This document shows positions 5,030 through 11,657 of a stretch of DNA of 11,657 nt, piece after piece. Both the position numbers and the translations under genes were made by a program. Each line of letters starts with the position of its first letter. The first letter of the stretch is position 1. The notes beneath the pieces are model-generated. The model worked only from the letters and a program-made list of their open reading frames with translations, did no database searches and was not told the DNA's origin. Source of the stretch: a virus (taxonomy: Duplodnaviria; Heunggongvirae; Uroviricota; Caudoviricetes); IMG/VR virus record IMGVR_UViG_2537562189_000011, positions 1 to 11,657 of that record; one strand, 5' to 3'.

Positions 5030-5277
5030 GCCGTCTGCTCTCCGGTTTTAACGTTGATGGTTGTTACCTGTTCCGCTTCGGCAATCTCCCGTTCTGTCAA
5101 CGTGGCAAAGTTTGCCGCTGCTGTGGTCATGAATGCGCTTATCAGTTCGGGATGCTCCTTCGCGTATCCTTCCCCCGCGTGGCGGTCTATCGTCCTGATT
5201 GCCACCTTTAAGGCCAGTTCAGCCATATCTAACGCCTTATATTTCGGCTCTGTTCTGTCTCTGCGTTTTTGGGTCAT
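5026..5277 (-). CDS. Hypothetical protein (about 83 aa), translationally coupled to the SSB-like gene
   Basis: The ORF track extends to a TTG at 5334 (102 aa), but that extension is encoded by the iteron repeats. ATG at 5277 (MTQKRRDRTEP...) has a GAGAGG Shine-Dalgarno; a further ATG lies at 5226. No recognised domain. Confidence 0.45.
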   Translation of the reverse strand: MTQKRRDRTEPKYKALDMAELALKVAIRTIDRHAGEGYAKEHPELISAFMTTAAANFATLTEREIAEAEQVTTINVKTGEQTA

Positions 5278-5288
5278 TTCTCGCAACC

Positions 5289-5479
5289 TCTCACTTTTTC
5301 GCCTCACTTTTTCAAGCGTCTCACTTCGTCGCAATTGGGATTTTTGGTTTTTCTATGTGTGTGTTTCATAAGTATTTTTTTACCCCTCACTTTTGAGGAT
5401 GTATACAGGTAGAAAAGTGAGGGAGAGCAGGCTAATTTTGGCCCTCTTTCTATCCACCTCGCTTTTGCTCCTCACTTTT
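5289..5479. repeat. Iteron cluster (CTCACTTTT) flanking an AT-rich segment; candidate replication origin
   Basis: Perfect copies at 5290-5298, 5304-5312, 5387-5395 and 5471-5479, one inverted copy (AAAAGTGAG, 5413-5421), and degenerate copies at 5320-5328 (CTCACTTCG) and 5459-5467 (CTCGCTTTT). AT-rich core at 5331-5384. Lies immediately 3' of the helicase gene. Confidence 0.6.
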
Positions 5480-6459
5480 ATAGCGGCGCTACATCATCCC
5501 CATCGATACGAATAACCCCATCTTTTTCCAGCTTGTACAGCCAGCGCCGGAAGTTTTTCATTTCATACCCCAGCTTTTTCATGTCATCACGTAACAGCGG
5601 GATCGTGCACTTGTCGCCGTTCTGTGTGCGTGAACGGATGCACCCCCATAGCGCGGTATGGTTTTCCGTCTTGTTCCCTGCCTCCTCGATGCGCTCCAGT
5701 TCAACGGGAGGGCGCGGCTTATCCACCACCACCAGCGACGTGATTAATTCACCGTCAGCGTCGGTAAAAAGCTCCACCACGCGTAAGTCATATGCGGCTT
5801 CTTTGAGTTCCTCCGCGTCCTTCATTTTGGTGCATGAGATAACCAGCGCTTCGCCTCCTGCGTCCTCCCTGCGTATCCGGTATTCAGCATCCAGCGAAGC
5901 ACGAAATGCACTGGAACCGCGCGCGCCTTTCGCTCATCCTTGCCGGAATGGTGAACCACCAGCACCGTGGCCCCTGTGCGTCGATTCAGTTCGTCACAAC
6001 CACGGATAAACGCCCCCATATCACGGGAATCATTTCATCATTCCCACCAAGGCAACGCGCCAGCGTATCCAGAATAATCATGCGTACAGGTTTACCCGTT
6101 TCCCGCTCCACCTGACGGGCAGCGATAACCATTTCATCAACATCAAGCGGGGCAGCCGGAAAGATGGGGCGGTTTACCAGATACAGATTTTTCACCTGCT
6201 CATCGTGCACAACCTCCCAGGCTTTTACACGACGCGGAACACCTATACCGCCTTCACCAACCACATAGAGAACCGCACCATGTGCAACCCTGCGGCCTCC
6301 CCACTGGCGACCAGTGGCAACATGGCACGCCCACGATCCGGCAAGGAATGATTTATAGGACCCGCTAGCCCCGTATATGCTGCATAGCGATACCGCCGGA
6401 ATAATCCCCTTAACCACGTAATCCAGTTGCGTGTCGTATCCGGTAGATCCAACGCTCAT
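5478..6459 (-). pseudogene. Replication helicase (AAA_25 / RepA-like) disrupted by two frameshifts
   Basis: Three consecutive minus-strand ORFs in three frames together form one helicase-like protein: Walker A GASGSYKS and Walker B MIILDTL (6459-5986), GATVLVVHHSGKD (6019-5822), C-terminal domain (5825-5478). Reading continuity needs about +1 nt near 6033-6035 and -2 nt in the CCGCGCGCGCC tract at 5917-5927, which restores ...HHSGKDERKARGSSAFRASLD.... Confidence 0.7.
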
Positions 6460-6875
6460 CGGTAGCGTGGTTTTTCGCTGGTGGTTTTTTCTTCCGCCGG
6501 CTCTTTCCCGCGCACCCGTTCCAGGTATTCGCGCCAGTTCTCCCGCATATGGCTGTGCATCCCTTCGGGGTAATAATTCGCATCAGTTACACCCGCCGCC
6601 GCCAGTTTGTGCGCAATGGCATTAATATTTGATGGCCTGATGTGGCCTGCCTTGTACAGCCGGACACAATAGCGCCCCTCGTCGATGATTCTCAGGTCTG
6701 CCAGTTCATCCAGTTGATCATCAGCCAGCACAACGGGAGGCACATTATCGCCAGCCAGTCGCCCGTCCTGTTCCTGCCACTGTTTCGCATGTGCCCAGGC
6801 ATCACTACCCGCAAAAATAATGACTTCGGTCATCTTGTCGTAAGGCTGTTTTTTTAAGTTCGGTGCGCTTTTCAT
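6456..6875 (-). CDS. Hypothetical protein (139 aa), coupled upstream partner of the helicase gene
   Basis: ATG at 6875 with AGGGG Shine-Dalgarno; ATGA overlaps with both the upstream gene and the helicase start. No confident domain assignment. Confidence 0.55.
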   Translation of the reverse strand: MKSAPNLKKQPYDKMTEVIIFAGSDAWAHAKQWQEQDGRLAGDNVPPVVLADDQLDELADLRIIDEGRYCVRLYKAGHIRPSNINAIAHKLAAAGVTDANYYPEGMHSHMRENWREYLERVRGKEPAEEKTTSEKPRYR

Positions 6876-7171: not shown

Positions 7172-7403
7172 TATTTTTATTCTCCGGTGTGCTGTTCGTT
7201 ATATCTGTCGTGCAATGTCTCTATTTCCTGCAACACATTTATTACAGGCTCAAGAAGCGTTATTAATGATGTAATAATCCGCGTTTTTTTTGCTATTACG
7301 TTCATTATCGCCAAAGGATTCAAGGCACATCCGCAATATTTCCATCATATTTTCACTGTGAGAAAGTGCAAGAAATACGCGATCTGTTGTTTCGTGGTAA
7401 ATA

Positions 7404-7637
7404 TCACGCATGGCTTACATCCTCAGGAAATTTTCTTCTGTAACGAGCCTCTGCCACATATTCCGCATAATCGGCGGCGATATTCAGTACATCAAGCCCC
7501 GTTGATTTATATTCTCTCGTGGAAAGTAAGAAAAAAGCCGCTCTAATAAGTTCTGGCATTGACGAAAGCGCATCAGCCGCATCATCAGGAACGCCGGAAA
7601 ATTCCTGTTTCAGGGAATTAAAACGATCATCACGCAT
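7404..7637 (-). CDS. Hypothetical protein (77 aa); possibly the C-terminal half of a gene split at a homopolymer tract
   Basis: ATG at 7637 sits immediately 3' of a G9 run (C9 on the plus strand, 7640-7648). One extra G would fuse it in frame to the upstream ORF. Confidence 0.4.
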   Translation of the reverse strand: MRDDRFNSLKQEFSGVPDDAADALSSMPELIRAAFFLLSTREYKSTGLDVLNIAADYAEYVAEARYRRKFPEDVSHA

Positions 7638-7870
7638 AACCCCCCCCCATTTTCACAATCAGCAATCAGGATAGCTTTGGCCTCATTCAGCGCCGTATCA
7701 GCACTAAATTGCATGACAGCCAGTGAGTGAGGAACGAAAGCACCGGCATATTCTGTTTCGCTGGTGGCGTGCTTATGTGCCCTGTCCGCGATAACAGAAA
7801 TATCAATCAGCGCGTGCATCAGCGTTTTGATGGCTTCGGCGGCTGCGTCCGGTGTGGTTTTATTGTGCAT
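7610..7870 (-). CDS. Hypothetical protein (86 aa); possibly the N-terminal half of a gene split at a homopolymer tract
   Basis: ATG at 7870; the reading frame runs through the G9 tract (ENGGG) and stops 27 nt later. Confidence 0.4.
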   Translation of the reverse strand: MHNKTTPDAAAEAIKTLMHALIDISVIADRAHKHATSETEYAGAFVPHSLAVMQFSADTALNEAKAILIADCENGGGLCVMIVLIP

Positions 7871-9036: not shown

Positions 9037-9129
9037 GGTGTATTTCACCTTCATTTTTAAATCTACATTCAGGTGAAATACACCGCAAGACTTTTTTTAT
9101 CTTTTTTTTTGCGTATACTGAAATACACC
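9037..9129 (+). promoter_or_regulatory. Promoter/operator region of the second ribbon-helix-helix gene: GGTG-N5-CACC inverted repeats plus a TATACT -10
   Basis: GGTGTATTTCACC at 9037-9049 and its reverse complement GGTGAAATACACC at 9072-9084 (centres 35 bp apart); a third half-site TGAAATACACC at 9119-9129 overlaps a TATACT at 9114-9119; T-rich stretch at 9091-9110; AGGAG Shine-Dalgarno at 9137-9141. Confidence 0.5.
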
Positions 9130-9386: not shown

Positions 9387-9536
9387 ATGACCAATAAAGA
9401 ATCAACCAATACACCATCGCAAAAAACGAACAGAGAGCACGAAAATATGGCGCTCGAGCATGAATCAGAAAGATTCGCTCCATGCGCTTTTGTCCTTGAT
9501 GAGTTTCTAAAAAATATTCACGTTCTGAACGGATGA
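9387..9536 (+). CDS. Hypothetical small protein (49 aa), MTNK... N-terminus; not in the ORF track
   Basis: ATG at 9387 to TGA at 9534-9536, translated by hand: MTNKESTNTPSQKTNREHENMALEHESERFAPCAFVLDEFLKNIHVLNG. Position and first codons parallel the ORF at 8646. Confidence 0.3.
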   Translation: MTNKESTNTPSQKTNREHENMALEHESERFAPCAFVLDEFLKNIHVLNG

Positions 9537-9864: not shown

Positions 9865-10053
9865 TTAGTGAACTGCCTTGCAGCTATCCTTCCAGGCCAA
9901 AACCTCAGATAAAGACCAGCCAACAGAACGCCCGCCAAGTTTACGACGTGATGGGAATTGTCCGGCCTTTTCCAGGCGGTAGCGGCATGAGCGGCTAAGG
10001 CCTGTTAGCTTTTCGCATTCTTTTTCACGTATAAACCGATCAGTGCTTAACAC
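9865..10053 (-). CDS. alpA: AlpA-family phage regulatory protein (small HTH regulator)
   Basis: 62 aa; RFIREKECEKLTGLSRSCRYRLEKAGQFPSRRKLGGRSVGWSLSEVLAWK matches the AlpA helix-turn-helix signature. GTG start at 10053 with AAGGGGG Shine-Dalgarno 5 nt upstream. Confidence 0.85.
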   Translation of the reverse strand: MLSTDRFIREKECEKLTGLSRSCRYRLEKAGQFPSRRKLGGRSVGWSLSEVLAWKDSCKAVH

Positions 10054-10427: not shown

Positions 10428-11657
10428 TTATTTTATTCTGGTTACTGGTAGCGTGGTTACGTTTTCATGTGTTCCCGCCAGTATCTCCAACCGCTCCACC
10501 CACATATCAAGCGCATTGCGTTTCGCATCAATATAGCGGGAATGGTTGTACACGCGTTGCATTCCTAGCATCTGGTGGCCTGTAAGCTGCTCCACGACGT
10601 GAGGATCAACGCCTAAATCGTTCAGCATGGTTGTAAAGGTGCGCCGGATGTCATGCAGTGACCAGTGAGGGTGTTTAAGCCTCCTGTGCACCAATCTGCC
10701 GTACTGCGATACGCTGGTTTCCTGTTTCACTTCCCCCAGCAATAAGCCCGTGTGCCTGTTCTGCTCCACCAGCTGCGTGACGAACGGCAGTATCGCTTCC
10801 GGTATGGGCCGGAATATGGCTACCTTCGTTTTGCTGTGCTCCTTCGGAACGGTCCAGAGCATTTCGGTAAAATCCCACTCGCCGATCTCCGATAACCTCA
10901 GTTCTACTGTCCGGCATCCGAAAACAATCAGGAGGCGGATTAGTGCGACGTAGTAAGGGGAAAATATTTTTTTGTCCAGTGCCTGCAATAATTCGCCAAG
11001 TTCTTTGTTACTTAAGACACGCTCACTTATATCCGGTTTTTTCCCAACGTCCGCCACACTCATATCATCAAGAACGTTGCTGATTGCATAGCGCCGCTTC
11101 CTGCAGAACTTAAGCGCCTGCTTGCATGTCTGTAGCAGGAACCCGGCGGAAACAGGGGCTTTCTTTGCCACCCGATCAAAACAGGCCAGCCAGTGCCGTA
11201 GCTCGCATTTATCCAGCGGCATAGGGCCAATGTGCTGTATTACGTGATTATTTAGCCGCTTTTTCAGTGGGTCATAATCCACACGGTTTTCCTTTGCGTA
11301 CGACTCAAGCCAGTAGGTGAGCGCATCGCCAACCGTTACCGGCTTTAACGCTTCCTGTACGGTGTAATTCATTTCATGACGTGGATTTTTCCCCTCTGCC
11401 AGCCATGCGCGACACTGGGCGGCTTTTTCCCTGGCTGATTTCAGGCTCAGATCAGGATAATTTCCCAGCTTAATGCGTTCCGGTGGTGCCCCCCTTCCCG
11501 TTCCGGCCCTGTAAGTGAAATACCAGGTTAAAAGGCCACTGGTTGAATGCCTGACGCTCAGGTTTCCACCGTCATTAAGAAAGGCTGTTTTTTGGGCGGG
11601 TGTGCCGTTGATTTTCCTCAGCTGGGTATCGCTCAGTTTGTTAAGTGCTCTGCTCAT
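10428..11657 (-). CDS. int: Tyrosine integrase, P4-type (site-specific recombinase)
   Basis: 409-aa ORF, ATG exactly at the window end (11657-11655), TAA at 10430-10428. N-terminal arm-binding-like domain (GLLTWYFTYRAGTGRG..RIKLGNYPDLSLKSAREKA) and a C-terminal catalytic domain with HxxR and a terminal Tyr region as expected for tyrosine recombinases. Confidence 0.9.
   Translation of the reverse strand: MSRALNKLSDTQLRKINGTPAQKTAFLNDGGNLSVRHSTSGLLTWYFTYRAGTGRGAPPERIKLGNYPDLSLKSAREKAAQCRAWLAEGKNPRHEMNYTVQEALKPVTVGDALTYWLESYAKENRVDYDPLKKRLNNHVIQHIGPMPLDKCELRHWLACFDRVAKKAPVSAGFLLQTCKQALKFCRKRRYAISNVLDDMSVADVGKKPDISERVLSNKELGELLQALDKKIFSPYYVALIRLLIVFGCRTVELRLSEIGEWDFTEMLWTVPKEHSKTKVAIFRPIPEAILPFVTQLVEQNRHTGLLLGEVKQETSVSQYGRLVHRRLKHPHWSLHDIRRTFTTMLNDLGVDPHVVEQLTGHQMLGMQRVYNHSRYIDAKRNALDMWVERLEILAGTHENVTTLPVTRIK

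What the first reader, a model, noticed from the sequence alone, without database searches (positions are those of the whole stretch)
7600..7660. C9/G9 homopolymer at the junction of two ORFs: one extra base would fuse them into a ~163-aa protein
The ORFs 7610-7870 and 7404-7637 are separated only by a nine-base homopolymer; the second ATG follows the tract directly. A tract of 10 (or 7) puts both in one frame. This is the signature of a slipped-strand on/off or long/short switch, or of a homopolymer sequencing error. The tract could also act as the ribosome-binding site for the downstream ORF.
Basis: seen in the sequence. Interest (0 to 1): 0.45.

Follow-up and report, generated by a model that had tools for sequence, protein, structure and literature searches.

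The report
Hypervariable poly-G junction between two satellite genes
A run of nine G's sits where two small genes of an E. coli phage satellite (a capsid-forming PICI) meet; its length really does differ between near-identical strains (6 to 11), fusing or separating the genes, but both genes stay readable at every length, so it looks like a mutation hot spot in a ribosome-binding site and not an on/off switch.

Summary
C9 lies at 7640-7648 (G9 on the coding minus strand), inside ORF 7870..7610 and 2 nt before the ATG of ORF 7637..7404. G7 or G10 fuses them into 154 or 155 aa, not ~163.

The window is an EcCIEDL933-type capsid-forming PICI of E. coli. In relatives the run is G6 to G11. Among 57 IMG/VR loci with this junction: G7 18, G8 16, G9 13, G10 3, G11 3, interrupted 4. 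Elements with identical 460-nt flanks carry G7, G8, G9 and G10. Within the O111 clone, with an otherwise identical 1.1 kb, G9 (36 genomes), G10 (5) and G8 (1) coexist. A/T runs of 6-7 in the same loci are essentially invariant.

Both halves are autonomous genes elsewhere. There, the homologous junctions carry a short G-rich Shine-Dalgarno and an ATGNNTGA overlap, which is exactly the G8/G11 state. All three frames are common (13 fused, 20 coupled, 10 with the window's 28-nt overlap), and none removes either ORF.

Best reading: the downstream gene's Shine-Dalgarno has expanded into a slippage-prone homopolymer, giving a tolerated fused/split polymorphism. G9 is a genuine allele, shared by the nearest relatives, although the window sequence carries other homopolymer deletions. 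This is a new member of a known kind, of modest interest.

The parts
7640..7648 (-). G9 homopolymer (C9 on + strand). It forms codons 75-77 (Gly-Gly-Gly) of the upstream ORF and is the Shine-Dalgarno-like run of the downstream ORF. It is the hypervariable site.
   Evidence: for the sequence. Length G6-G11 in relatives. Anti-SD duplex about -11 kcal/mol.
7610..7870 (-). Upstream small gene ('N module'), 86 aa in the G9 frame, ending ...CENGGGLCVMIVLIP*. Function unknown.
   Evidence: It matches phrog_5146 (N only) and positions 1-77 of phrog_2512. It stands alone as a 78-81 aa gene in 26 of 80 IMG/VR loci. The exact product is indexed in 237 blocks of assemblies.
7404..7637 (-). Downstream small gene ('C module'), 77 aa, with its own ATG at 7637-7635. 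Function unknown.
   Evidence: It matches phrog_24341 (C only) and positions 78-154 of phrog_2512. A 100% identical copy stands alone behind a different 121-aa gene in E. coli FORC_029.
7630..7637 (-). ATGCGTGA. This is the start codon of the C gene plus the TGA that terminates the N gene in G5/G8/G11 alleles, giving the canonical 8-nt coupled overlap. That TGA is not in the N frame in this window.
   Evidence: The G8 layout is annotated as two genes in O55:H7 CB9615 and in Nissle.
7610..7612 (-). TGA stop of the N ORF in the G6/G9/G12 frame, giving the 28-nt overlap with the C ORF.
5060..6459 (-). Context: the RepA-family helicase gene of the island, broken in this window by three single-base deletions (near 5932, 6035 and 6490) that the nearest relatives lack.
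   Evidence: It is an intact 465-466 aa gene in relatives.
9865..10053 (-). Context: the alpA-like regulator gene upstream of the operon that holds the two ORFs. The integrase gene lies at 10428-11657(-).
   Evidence: PF05930 and PF00589 on the collinear genes of L084-L090. RefSeq annotation of L001.

Best explanation
The tract is a real, slippage-prone poly-G run at the boundary of two autonomous small genes of unknown function. They lie in the alpA-side early operon of an EcCIEDL933-type capsid-forming PICI.

Shown: in related islands, each gene occurs on its own with other neighbours. The homologous boundary there consists of a short G-rich Shine-Dalgarno (GGGGG, GGGGGG or GGAGG) buried in the last codons of the upstream gene, followed by an ATGNNTGA or ATGNNTAA start/stop overlap.

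Inferred: in this lineage the Shine-Dalgarno run has grown into an uninterrupted G6-G11 homopolymer. Growth came by slippage and probably also by T->G changes at the 3' T. Replication slippage now moves it by single bases far faster than the flanks accumulate substitutions.

Shown: the length sets one of three layouts.
- G7/G10: one fused 154/155-aa protein with a Gly-Gly(-Gly)-Val linker.
- G5/G8/G11: two genes in the canonical 8-nt ATGCGTGA overlap.
- G6/G9/G12 (this window): two genes overlapping by 28 nt, with the upstream protein gaining a 9-residue hydrophobic tail (LCVMIVLIP).

Shown: the downstream gene keeps its own ATG and G-rich ribosome-binding site in every layout, and the upstream module is complete in every layout. 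All three layouts are common in nature.

Inferred: the polymorphism is therefore tolerated, being neutral or only mildly consequential, and is not an on/off phase switch. The G9 in this window is a genuine, common allele.
For: Tract and frames.

Length variation among relatives:
- Individual genomes: G11 in ST130, G7 in O157:H7, G10 in 042, G8 in Nissle, O55:H7 CB9615 and Shigella flexneri, G6 in O145 RM8995-C1.
- The 57 IMG/VR loci with this junction: G7 18, G8 16, G9 13, G10 3, G11 3, interrupted 4.

Hypermutability relative to the flanks:
- A group of 11 loci with identical 230+230-nt flanks carries G7, G8, G9 and G10.
- 62% of zero-distance pairs differ in tract length, against 77-80% of the most diverged pairs. 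Part of this figure is inflated, because loci L084-L092 were retrieved by a G9-specific product.
- Without those loci, 4 of the 7 recurrent IMG/VR haplotypes still carry more than one length.

Within one clone (O111 STEC), over 1112 nt: 36 genomes are identical with G9, 5 have a 1-nt longer span and 1 has a 1-nt shorter span. Two of the five were read directly and are G10, and the shorter one is G8. The other three are inferred from match length.

Controls: A/T runs of 6-7 in the same loci are invariant or nearly so (28/28, 14/14, 11/11, 10/11). The interrupted Gly stretch GGCGGGGGC has a constant length in every locus that carries it.

Autonomy of the two genes:
- N-only genes of 77-81 aa sit next to at least four different downstream genes.
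- An identical C gene stands alone behind another gene, with the junction CAGGGGGGTAAACATGCGTGA.
- Remote homologues are mostly 70-95-aa N-only or C-only proteins.
- PHROGs holds separate N, C and fused families.

No selection for the fused frame: de-duplicated haplotype/tract combinations are 13 fused, 20 coupled and 10 with the 28-nt overlap.

SD role: the anti-SD duplex is about -11 kcal/mol for G>=7, comparable to the other junctions. The +-25 nt around the run is the most conserved part of the two genes (heterozygosity 0.02-0.03 against 0.15-0.29).

G9 is genuine: the exact 86-aa product is indexed in 237 blocks. The nearest relatives L084 (NCBI draft) and L092 (Logan assembly of ERR15827034) are 99.6-99.7% identical and have G9. 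The Sanger genome of O111:H- 11128 has G9.
Against: - No read-level data were available. The switching rate within a culture is unknown, and some of the minority lengths inside clones (for example in PacBio-era assemblies) could be consensus errors.
- There was no G/C homopolymer of similar length to use as a control. The controls were A/T runs of 6-7.
- The window itself carries several single-base indels, mostly in A/T runs, relative to its nearest relatives. Its own homopolymer calls are therefore not fully trustworthy.
- Neutrality is inferred from frame frequencies only. The functions of both proteins are unknown, and the structure model is poor (pLDDT 48). A functional difference between the fused and split forms cannot be excluded.
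- The persistence of an uninterrupted run across diverged N and C modules could reflect selection for mutability, not merely a shared recombining junction.
Confidence: 0.68

Rival explanations
1. Adaptive contingency locus. The satellite uses the poly-G run as a stochastic switch between one bifunctional fusion protein and two separate proteins (or between three states). This diversifies some property such as helper-phage interaction, induction or interference across a population.
For: - The run is long, pure and hypervariable, even inside clones.
- It stays uninterrupted across diverged modules. Only 4 of 57 loci have an interruption, although synonymous GGN codons could break it.
- Both locked-fused alleles (GGGTGGG) and locked-split alleles (GGGGGTGG) exist, as would be expected if the states differ in value.
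- Clone-specific fixed states exist: O157:H7 G7, O55:H7 G8.
Against: - No state abolishes either ORF.
- Frame classes are roughly equally frequent, with no 3-nt periodicity.
- The purity of the run can be explained by the near-invariant junction segment that the mosaics share.
- No phenotype or function is known.
- From established knowledge: mismatch-repair-proficient E. coli is not known to rely on simple-sequence contingency loci.
Confidence: 0.15
2. Assembly or sequencing error in this window. The true tract in the source organism is G10 (or G7) and the gene is fused; the 9 is a homopolymer under-call.
For: - The window differs from two otherwise near-identical independent assemblies by 5 single-base deletions and 1 insertion in 4.3 kb. 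Most are in A/T runs, and they break the RepA helicase gene in three places and a 77-aa gene once.
- The 157-aa helicase fragment the window encodes is found nowhere else in the collection.
- Relatives never share the shortened runs at 6485-6490 and 9509-9514.
Against: - Both nearest relatives (L084, L092), which have intact genes, also read G9.
- The exact G9 product is indexed in 237 blocks, and all nine places whose sequence was fetched read G9.
- G9 also occurs in the Sanger-sequenced O111:H- 11128.
Confidence: 0.1
3. Recoding site. Ribosomal -1/+1 frameshifting or RNA-polymerase slippage on the G run produces some fusion protein from split alleles (and some separate proteins from fused ones), so all alleles express a mixture.
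For: - A run of 9 identical bases permits tRNA re-pairing in any frame, and nascent-RNA slippage.
- The SD-like run lies immediately upstream.
- From established knowledge: slippage-based recoding is well known at dnaX, in IS3-family orfAB and at long A/T runs.
- None of this was tested directly here.
Against: - A recoding site is expected to conserve one out-of-frame layout, but all three frames and the in-frame fusion occur freely.
- No significant downstream RNA structure was found (z = +0.8; 160 of 200 shuffles fold at least as well).
- From memory: polymerase slippage is documented mainly for A/T runs.
Confidence: 0.07

Closest known systems
Poly-G/poly-C contingency loci of Campylobacter jejuni, Neisseria and Haemophilus, including cases where tract length merges two annotated ORFs into one (for example the C. 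jejuni Cj0031/Cj0032 pair, recalled from memory)
   Same: Both have an uninterrupted G/C homopolymer inside coding sequence, single-base length changes by slipped-strand mispairing, length polymorphism among near-identical strains, and fused versus split annotation depending on length.
   Different: In those loci the off-frame truncates the protein and switches a phenotype off, and switching is measured within cultures. Here neither module is lost in any frame, all frames are common, the host is mismatch-repair-proficient E. coli, the element is a phage satellite, and no switching rate or phenotype is known.
Homopolymeric-tract microevolution in clonal pathogens: Bordetella pertussis (PMC1891110) and the Listeria inlA poly(A) tract (PMC2831843)
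   Same: Tract-length differences arise between isolates that are otherwise almost identical, with mutation frequency orders of magnitude above point mutation.
   Different: Those tracts inactivate or restore a gene. This one rearranges the junction of two genes that each remain intact.
Translationally coupled overlapping gene pairs (ATGA or ATGNNTGA) with the downstream Shine-Dalgarno inside the upstream gene, as is common in phage and satellite operons
   Same: The G8/G11 alleles and the homologous junctions in sister islands have exactly this layout. The G run occupies the Shine-Dalgarno position.
   Different: The Shine-Dalgarno has become a 6-11-nt homopolymer abutting the start codon, which makes the frame relation between the two genes unstable. 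The window's G9 state has a 28-nt overlap instead of 8.
GnT mutational hot-spot motifs (Horton et al. 2025, PMC12344412)
   Same: The run is followed by T. A common allele, GGGGGGGGTATG (ENGGGM, 154 aa, indexed in 105 blocks), is what a T->G change at the 3' T of G7TT would give.
   Different: That paper concerns substitutions that extend G tracts. The main behaviour here is single-base insertion and deletion.
Programmed frameshift or slippage sites (dnaX, IS3 orfAB, the phage tail chaperone G/GT)
   Same: Two overlapping ORFs can be joined by a shift of one base at a slippery run.
   Different: No fixed out-of-frame arrangement, no stimulatory structure was detected, and many natural alleles are simply in frame.

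Membership tests
Simple-sequence (homopolymer) contingency / phase-variable locus | Uninterrupted mononucleotide run of about 7 or more within or next to a coding sequence | tested here: met
   G9 at 7640-7648, codons 75-77 of the upstream ORF.
Simple-sequence (homopolymer) contingency / phase-variable locus | Tract length varies among closely related strains much faster than the flanking sequence | tested here: met
   - Identical 460-nt flanks carry G7, G8, G9 and G10.
- The O111 clone has G8, G9 and G10 in an otherwise identical 1.1 kb.
- Control A/T runs are essentially invariant.
Simple-sequence (homopolymer) contingency / phase-variable locus | Length change switches expression of a product on and off (premature stop removes function) | tested here: not met
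   For G5-G13, the N module (residues 1-74) and the 77-aa C ORF with its own ATG are intact in every frame. Frames occur 13:20:10.
Simple-sequence (homopolymer) contingency / phase-variable locus | Measurable high-frequency reversible switching within a clonal culture, with a selectable phenotype | not testable with these tools
   No reads or cultures were available, and the function of both proteins is unknown.
Translationally coupled overlapping gene pair | Both ORFs are autonomous genes that exist independently | tested here: met
   N alone with other downstream genes. C alone behind another gene. Separate PHROG families. Remote homologues are mostly single-module.
Translationally coupled overlapping gene pair | The downstream start codon is preceded by a Shine-Dalgarno inside the upstream gene | tested here: met
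   GGGGGGGGGTTATG, with a predicted anti-SD duplex of about -11 kcal/mol. GGGGG, GGGGGG or GGAGG occupy the same position in homologous junctions.
Translationally coupled overlapping gene pair | Short stop/start overlap (ATGA or ATGNNTGA) | tested here: not met
   In this window (G9) the overlap is 28 nt. The 8-nt ATGCGTGA overlap is realised in G8/G11 alleles such as O55:H7 CB9615 and Nissle.
Programmed frameshift / transcriptional slippage recoding site | One out-of-frame arrangement of the two ORFs is conserved across homologues | tested here: not met
   All three frame relations, including the direct fusion, are frequent.
Programmed frameshift / transcriptional slippage recoding site | Stimulatory RNA structure downstream of the slippery run | tested here: inconclusive
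   The 141-nt fold has z = +0.8 against shuffles. Only a weak pairing of the G run itself with a downstream UUAAUUCCC stretch is predicted.
Programmed frameshift / transcriptional slippage recoding site | A trans-frame product is detected | not testable with these tools
   This needs protein or RNA data.
Capsid-forming PICI (EcCIEDL933 family; 10.1101/2022.09.08.507074) | Integrase, alpA, a replication module and its own HK97-type capsid, protease and portal genes in a phage-satellite-sized island | tested here: met
   Collinear RefSeq annotation of L001 lists integrase, HTH regulator, Icd-like, DUF4222, RepA helicase, SSB, PerC, major capsid, prohead protease and portal. Pfam hits on L084-L090 agree. 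The O157:H7 copies are close relatives.
Capsid-forming PICI (EcCIEDL933 family; 10.1101/2022.09.08.507074) | Helper-phage-dependent induction and transfer in small capsids | not testable with these tools
   This is an experimental property. Moreover, the replication gene reads as broken in this window.

The most novel reading that the evidence does not exclude
The poly-G run is a genuine contingency locus of a phage satellite in E. coli. By slipping among G7-G11, the cf-PICI population continuously generates three sub-populations: one making a fused two-domain protein, one making two coupled proteins, and one making an upstream protein with a hydrophobic tail. These would differ in how the island responds to or interferes with helper phages, as a bet-hedging device carried by the satellite and not by the host. 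Tract length might additionally tune translation of the downstream gene through Shine-Dalgarno spacing.
Probability: 0.12. Interest if true: 0.65.

Novelty: new member of a known kind. Interest (0 to 1): 0.35.

Why it matters
Practically, this one site makes the same locus appear in RefSeq as one gene, as two genes, or as a 'frameshifted' pseudogene, and as three separate PHROG families. Anyone comparing cf-PICI gene content, or using this region for typing STEC lineages, should know that the differences come from a hypervariable G run.

Biologically, it is a clear example in mismatch-repair-proficient E. coli of a G/C homopolymer that changes faster than the surrounding kilobase accumulates any substitution. 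It also shows how an expanded Shine-Dalgarno can fuse and un-fuse neighbouring genes, which is a cheap route to domain fusion in mosaic mobile elements.

If the fused and split forms turn out to behave differently, it would be a stochastic switch in a phage satellite. That remains unproven.

Tried and rejected
- **Short exact-length queries.** Counting each tract length in the 5,426 complete E. coli genomes with short exact queries was abandoned. BLAST's DUST filter should mask homopolymers of 7 or more, so such queries should not seed (reasoned from the tool description, not run). The natural 155-aa P0001 was used instead.\n- **Frameshift-stimulating RNA structure.** Looked for and not found.\n- **Literature.** Searches found no description of this tract or of phase variation in PICIs.\n- **Source of the window.** Looking up the window's broken helicase fragment found it nowhere else.

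Full report
**1. The observation**

The + strand reads ...CGCATAA CCCCCCCCC ATTTTC..., with the nine C's at 7640-7648. All genes of the window run on the minus strand, where the site reads GAA AAT GGG GGG GGG TTA TGC GTG ATG ....

- ORF 7870..7610 (86 aa) runs through the G9 as codons 75-77 and stops at a TGA at 7612-7610.
- ORF 7637..7404 (77 aa) starts at an ATG 2 nt after the run. The two ORFs therefore overlap by 28 nt and are not separated by the run.
- Editing the run in silico gives a fused 154-aa (G7) or 155-aa (G10) protein. G5/G8/G11 give an upstream protein ending ...ENGGG(G)YA* whose TGA lies inside ATGCGTGA. G6/G9/G12 give the tail ...LCVMIVLIP*.
- As a string, a nine-base G/C run is only mildly unexpected: 0.10 expected, and 12 of 200 shuffles have one. 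It is the only G/C run of 7 or more in the window.

**2. Context**

The window is collinear with islands of E. coli that RefSeq annotates, in order, as: integrase, HTH regulator, Icd-like, several small hypothetical proteins, DUF4222, RepA-family helicase, SSB, PerC, major capsid protein, HK97 prohead protease and portal. In strain ST130 the island is integrated next to roxA/pepT. AlpA and AAA_25 Pfam domains sit on the corresponding genes.

This is the gene set of the capsid-forming PICIs typified by EcCIEDL933 (10.1101/2022.09.08.507074). Parts of it occur in 1,867 of 5,426 complete E. coli genomes. The two ORFs lie in the early operon, between the Icd-like gene and DUF4222/RepA.

**3. The tract in relatives**

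Sequences read directly gave these lengths:

| Length | Genomes |
|---|---|
| G6 | O145 RM8995-C1 |
| G7 | O157:H7 PV15-279 |
| G8 | Nissle, O55:H7 CB9615, E2863, 2013C-4538, Shigella flexneri SFBU1023 |
| G9 | O111:H- 11128, O111:H8 7-15 45A, PV0838, nine assemblies retrieved by the exact G9 product |
| G10 | 042, O111:NM 2010C-3053, SD134209 |
| G11 | ST130 |

Eighty IMG/VR loci were retrieved with the N module alone, which is blind to frame. Of these, 57 have this junction: G7 18, G8 16, G9 13, G10 3, G11 3, and four interrupted runs (GGGGGTGG three times, GGGGGGGGTGG once).

A systematic sample of 60 of the 909 matching complete genomes shows the same spread. G7 is inflated there by the many O157:H7 genomes.

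**4. How fast it changes**

- Eleven loci with identical 230-nt flanks on both sides carry G7, G8, G9 and G10. Pairs with zero flank differences differ in tract length 62% of the time, against 77-80% for the most diverged pairs. Part of this set was selected for G9.
- Within the unselected IMG/VR set, 4 of 7 recurrent haplotypes still show more than one length.
- In the O111 STEC clone, 36 complete genomes are 100% identical to a 1,112-nt query with G9. Five match with a span one base longer and one with a span one base shorter.
- Two of the five longer ones, and the shorter one, were read directly: G10, G10 and G8. The other three are inferred from match length.
- By contrast, every sampled O157:H7 genome has G7 and every sampled O55:H7 genome has G8. 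A six-genome sister lineage from three laboratories has G8. Differences between lineages are therefore reproducible and not random assembly noise.
- Control runs in the same IMG/VR loci do not vary: T6 28/28, A7 14/14, A7 11/11, A7 10/11.
- The interrupted Gly stretch GGCGGGGGC of sister islands has a constant length in every locus that carries it.
- I had no G/C run of comparable length as a control and no reads. Some of the minority lengths inside clones could therefore be consensus errors.

**5. The two ORFs are two genes**

- In 26 of the 80 IMG/VR loci the N module is a free-standing gene of 77-81 aa, followed by one of at least four unrelated downstream genes.
- The junctions there are AAT GGC GGG GGC GAT TAT GCG AAA TAA (next gene ATGCGAAATAA...), CAG/CAA GGG G.. 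CAC CAT GCA TGA (ATGCATGA overlap) and GGAGGTGGTGAGCCATGAATAA.
- In every case a G-rich Shine-Dalgarno lies in the last codons of the upstream gene, and the stop overlaps the next start.
- Conversely, in E. coli FORC_029 a 100% identical C gene follows a different 121-aa gene, with the junction CAGGGGGGTAAACATGCGTGA.
- A search of 1.84 billion representative proteins found only about 50 relatives. Most are N-only or C-only proteins of 70-95 aa, and only two or three span both halves at near full length.
- PHROGs holds three families: fused (phrog_2512, 154 positions), N only (phrog_5146) and C only (phrog_24341), all of unknown function.
- The G8/G11 state of the tract reproduces the canonical ATGCGTGA coupling exactly, and its upstream tail (ENGGGYA*) is in the same frame as ENGGGDYAK* of the sister islands.
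- I conclude, by inference, that the ancestral layout is two coupled genes. The run is the downstream gene's Shine-Dalgarno, expanded into a homopolymer.
- Predicted pairing with the 16S 3' end is about -11 kcal/mol for G7 or longer, in the range of the other junctions (-6.8 to -11.5).

**6. Is any frame preferred?**

After collapsing identical haplotypes, the combinations are 13 fused, 20 coupled and 10 in the window's frame. The length distribution declines smoothly from 7-8 to 11 without a three-base periodicity.

The top 120 protein hits to the fused form are all fused, but only because half-length proteins score lower. They show GG and GGG linkers recurring in several diverged backgrounds.

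The +-25 nt around the run is the most conserved part of both genes (heterozygosity 0.02-0.03 against 0.15-0.29). This fits a constrained start/SD region and a homology patch shared by the mosaics. It also explains, without invoking selection for mutability, why the run is pure in diverged modules.

**7. Is the window's G9 an error?**

The window does look error-prone or decayed. Compared with L084 (GCA_052053195.1) and L092 (Logan assembly of ERR15827034), which are identical to each other here, it has 7 substitutions, 5 one-base deletions and 1 insertion in 4.3 kb.

- Three deletions break the RepA helicase gene, and the insertion truncates the next small gene.
- The resulting helicase fragment exists nowhere else in the collection.
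- Yet at the tract both relatives read G9, and the exact 86-aa G9 product is indexed in 237 blocks of the collection.
- The allele is therefore real. A residual ~10% chance remains that this particular sequence mis-calls it.

**8. Other readings**

- A frameshift or slippage recoding site is unlikely. No single out-of-frame layout is conserved, and no structure stands out (z = +0.8).
- An adaptive fused/split switch cannot be excluded, because nothing is known about the proteins. There were no Pfam, PADLOC or PDB hits. The AlphaFold model is all-helical with the linker least confident, but poor overall (pLDDT 48).
- Locked alleles of both kinds exist: GGGTGGG fused, and GGGGGTGG split.

**9. 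Comparison and verdict**

The site behaves like the homopolymeric tracts described in Campylobacter, Neisseria, Bordetella (PMC1891110) and Listeria inlA (PMC2831843) in its mutability. It fails the defining on/off criterion of a phase-variable gene, because both modules survive in every frame.

It is best filed as a hypermutable expanded Shine-Dalgarno at a coupled gene junction of a cf-PICI, producing a tolerated fusion/fission polymorphism. That makes it a new member of a known kind.

I found no prior description of it. Its most tangible consequence today is inconsistent annotation: one gene, two genes or a 'frameshifted' pseudogene.

Noticed in passing
window 5932, 6035, 6490 (RepA helicase gene, about 5060-6459, minus strand): Three single-base deletions relative to all relatives split the 465-466-aa RepA-family helicase into several ORFs. 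The deletions are a T lost from GTC, T4->T3 and T7->T6. The 157-aa fragment is found nowhere else in the protein collection. Either the source assembly has homopolymer errors or this island copy can no longer replicate.
   Followed up: partly
window 7294 (ORF 7250-7411, minus strand): A one-base insertion relative to the nearest relatives truncates the next small gene to 53 aa. It is 77 aa in relatives, and the window's ORF matches only positions 1-42 of the 74-position phrog_2196.
   Followed up: partly
window 2257, 9514, 9684: There are further window-specific one-base shortenings of A/T runs (7 to 6). One lies about 23 nt inside the 5' end of the portal gene and two lie in the regulatory region near alpA. 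Relatives have 7 at these sites.
   Followed up: partly
L105 (GCA_014665435.1), junction TGTGAAAATGGGGGGGGTATG: A common fused allele (ENGGGM, 154 aa, indexed in 105 blocks) has G8 followed by a single T instead of G7 TT. That is a T->G change at the base 3' of the run, as described for GnT mutational hot spots (PMC12344412). The tract can therefore lengthen without changing frame.
   Followed up: partly
L106/L107 (GGGTGGGTT) and L033, L055, L061 (GGGGGTGGTT), L080 (GGGGGGGGTGGTT): Interrupted, presumably stabilised alleles exist in both the fused frame (ENGWVM) and the two-gene frame (ENGGGYA*).
   Followed up: partly
RefSeq records: L002/L003 (one gene), L001, L098, L093 (two genes), L099, L104 (pseudogene 'frameshifted'): NCBI's pipeline annotates the same locus in three different ways depending on tract length. 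In G8 alleles of the O111 lineage it also picks a much longer upstream start (438 nt).
   Followed up: yes
IMG/VR loci L004-L083, region of the N and C genes: The early operon is strongly mosaic. At least three diverged N modules and several unrelated downstream modules are joined at a nearly invariant ~50-nt junction (...ATTGCTGATTGTGAAAAT-Gn-TTATGCGTGATGATCGTTT...). This looks like a recombination linker between modules.
   Followed up: partly
window 9092-9110: T7 and T9 runs lie 3 nt apart on the + strand, upstream of the alpA-side genes. No IMG/VR relative shared the exact flanks, so their variability could not be assessed.
   Followed up: no
L108 (Shigella flexneri SFBU1023, CP182556.1): The island copy in Shigella has G8, but its C gene carries a further frameshift about 68 codons in, suggesting decay of this copy.
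   Followed up: no
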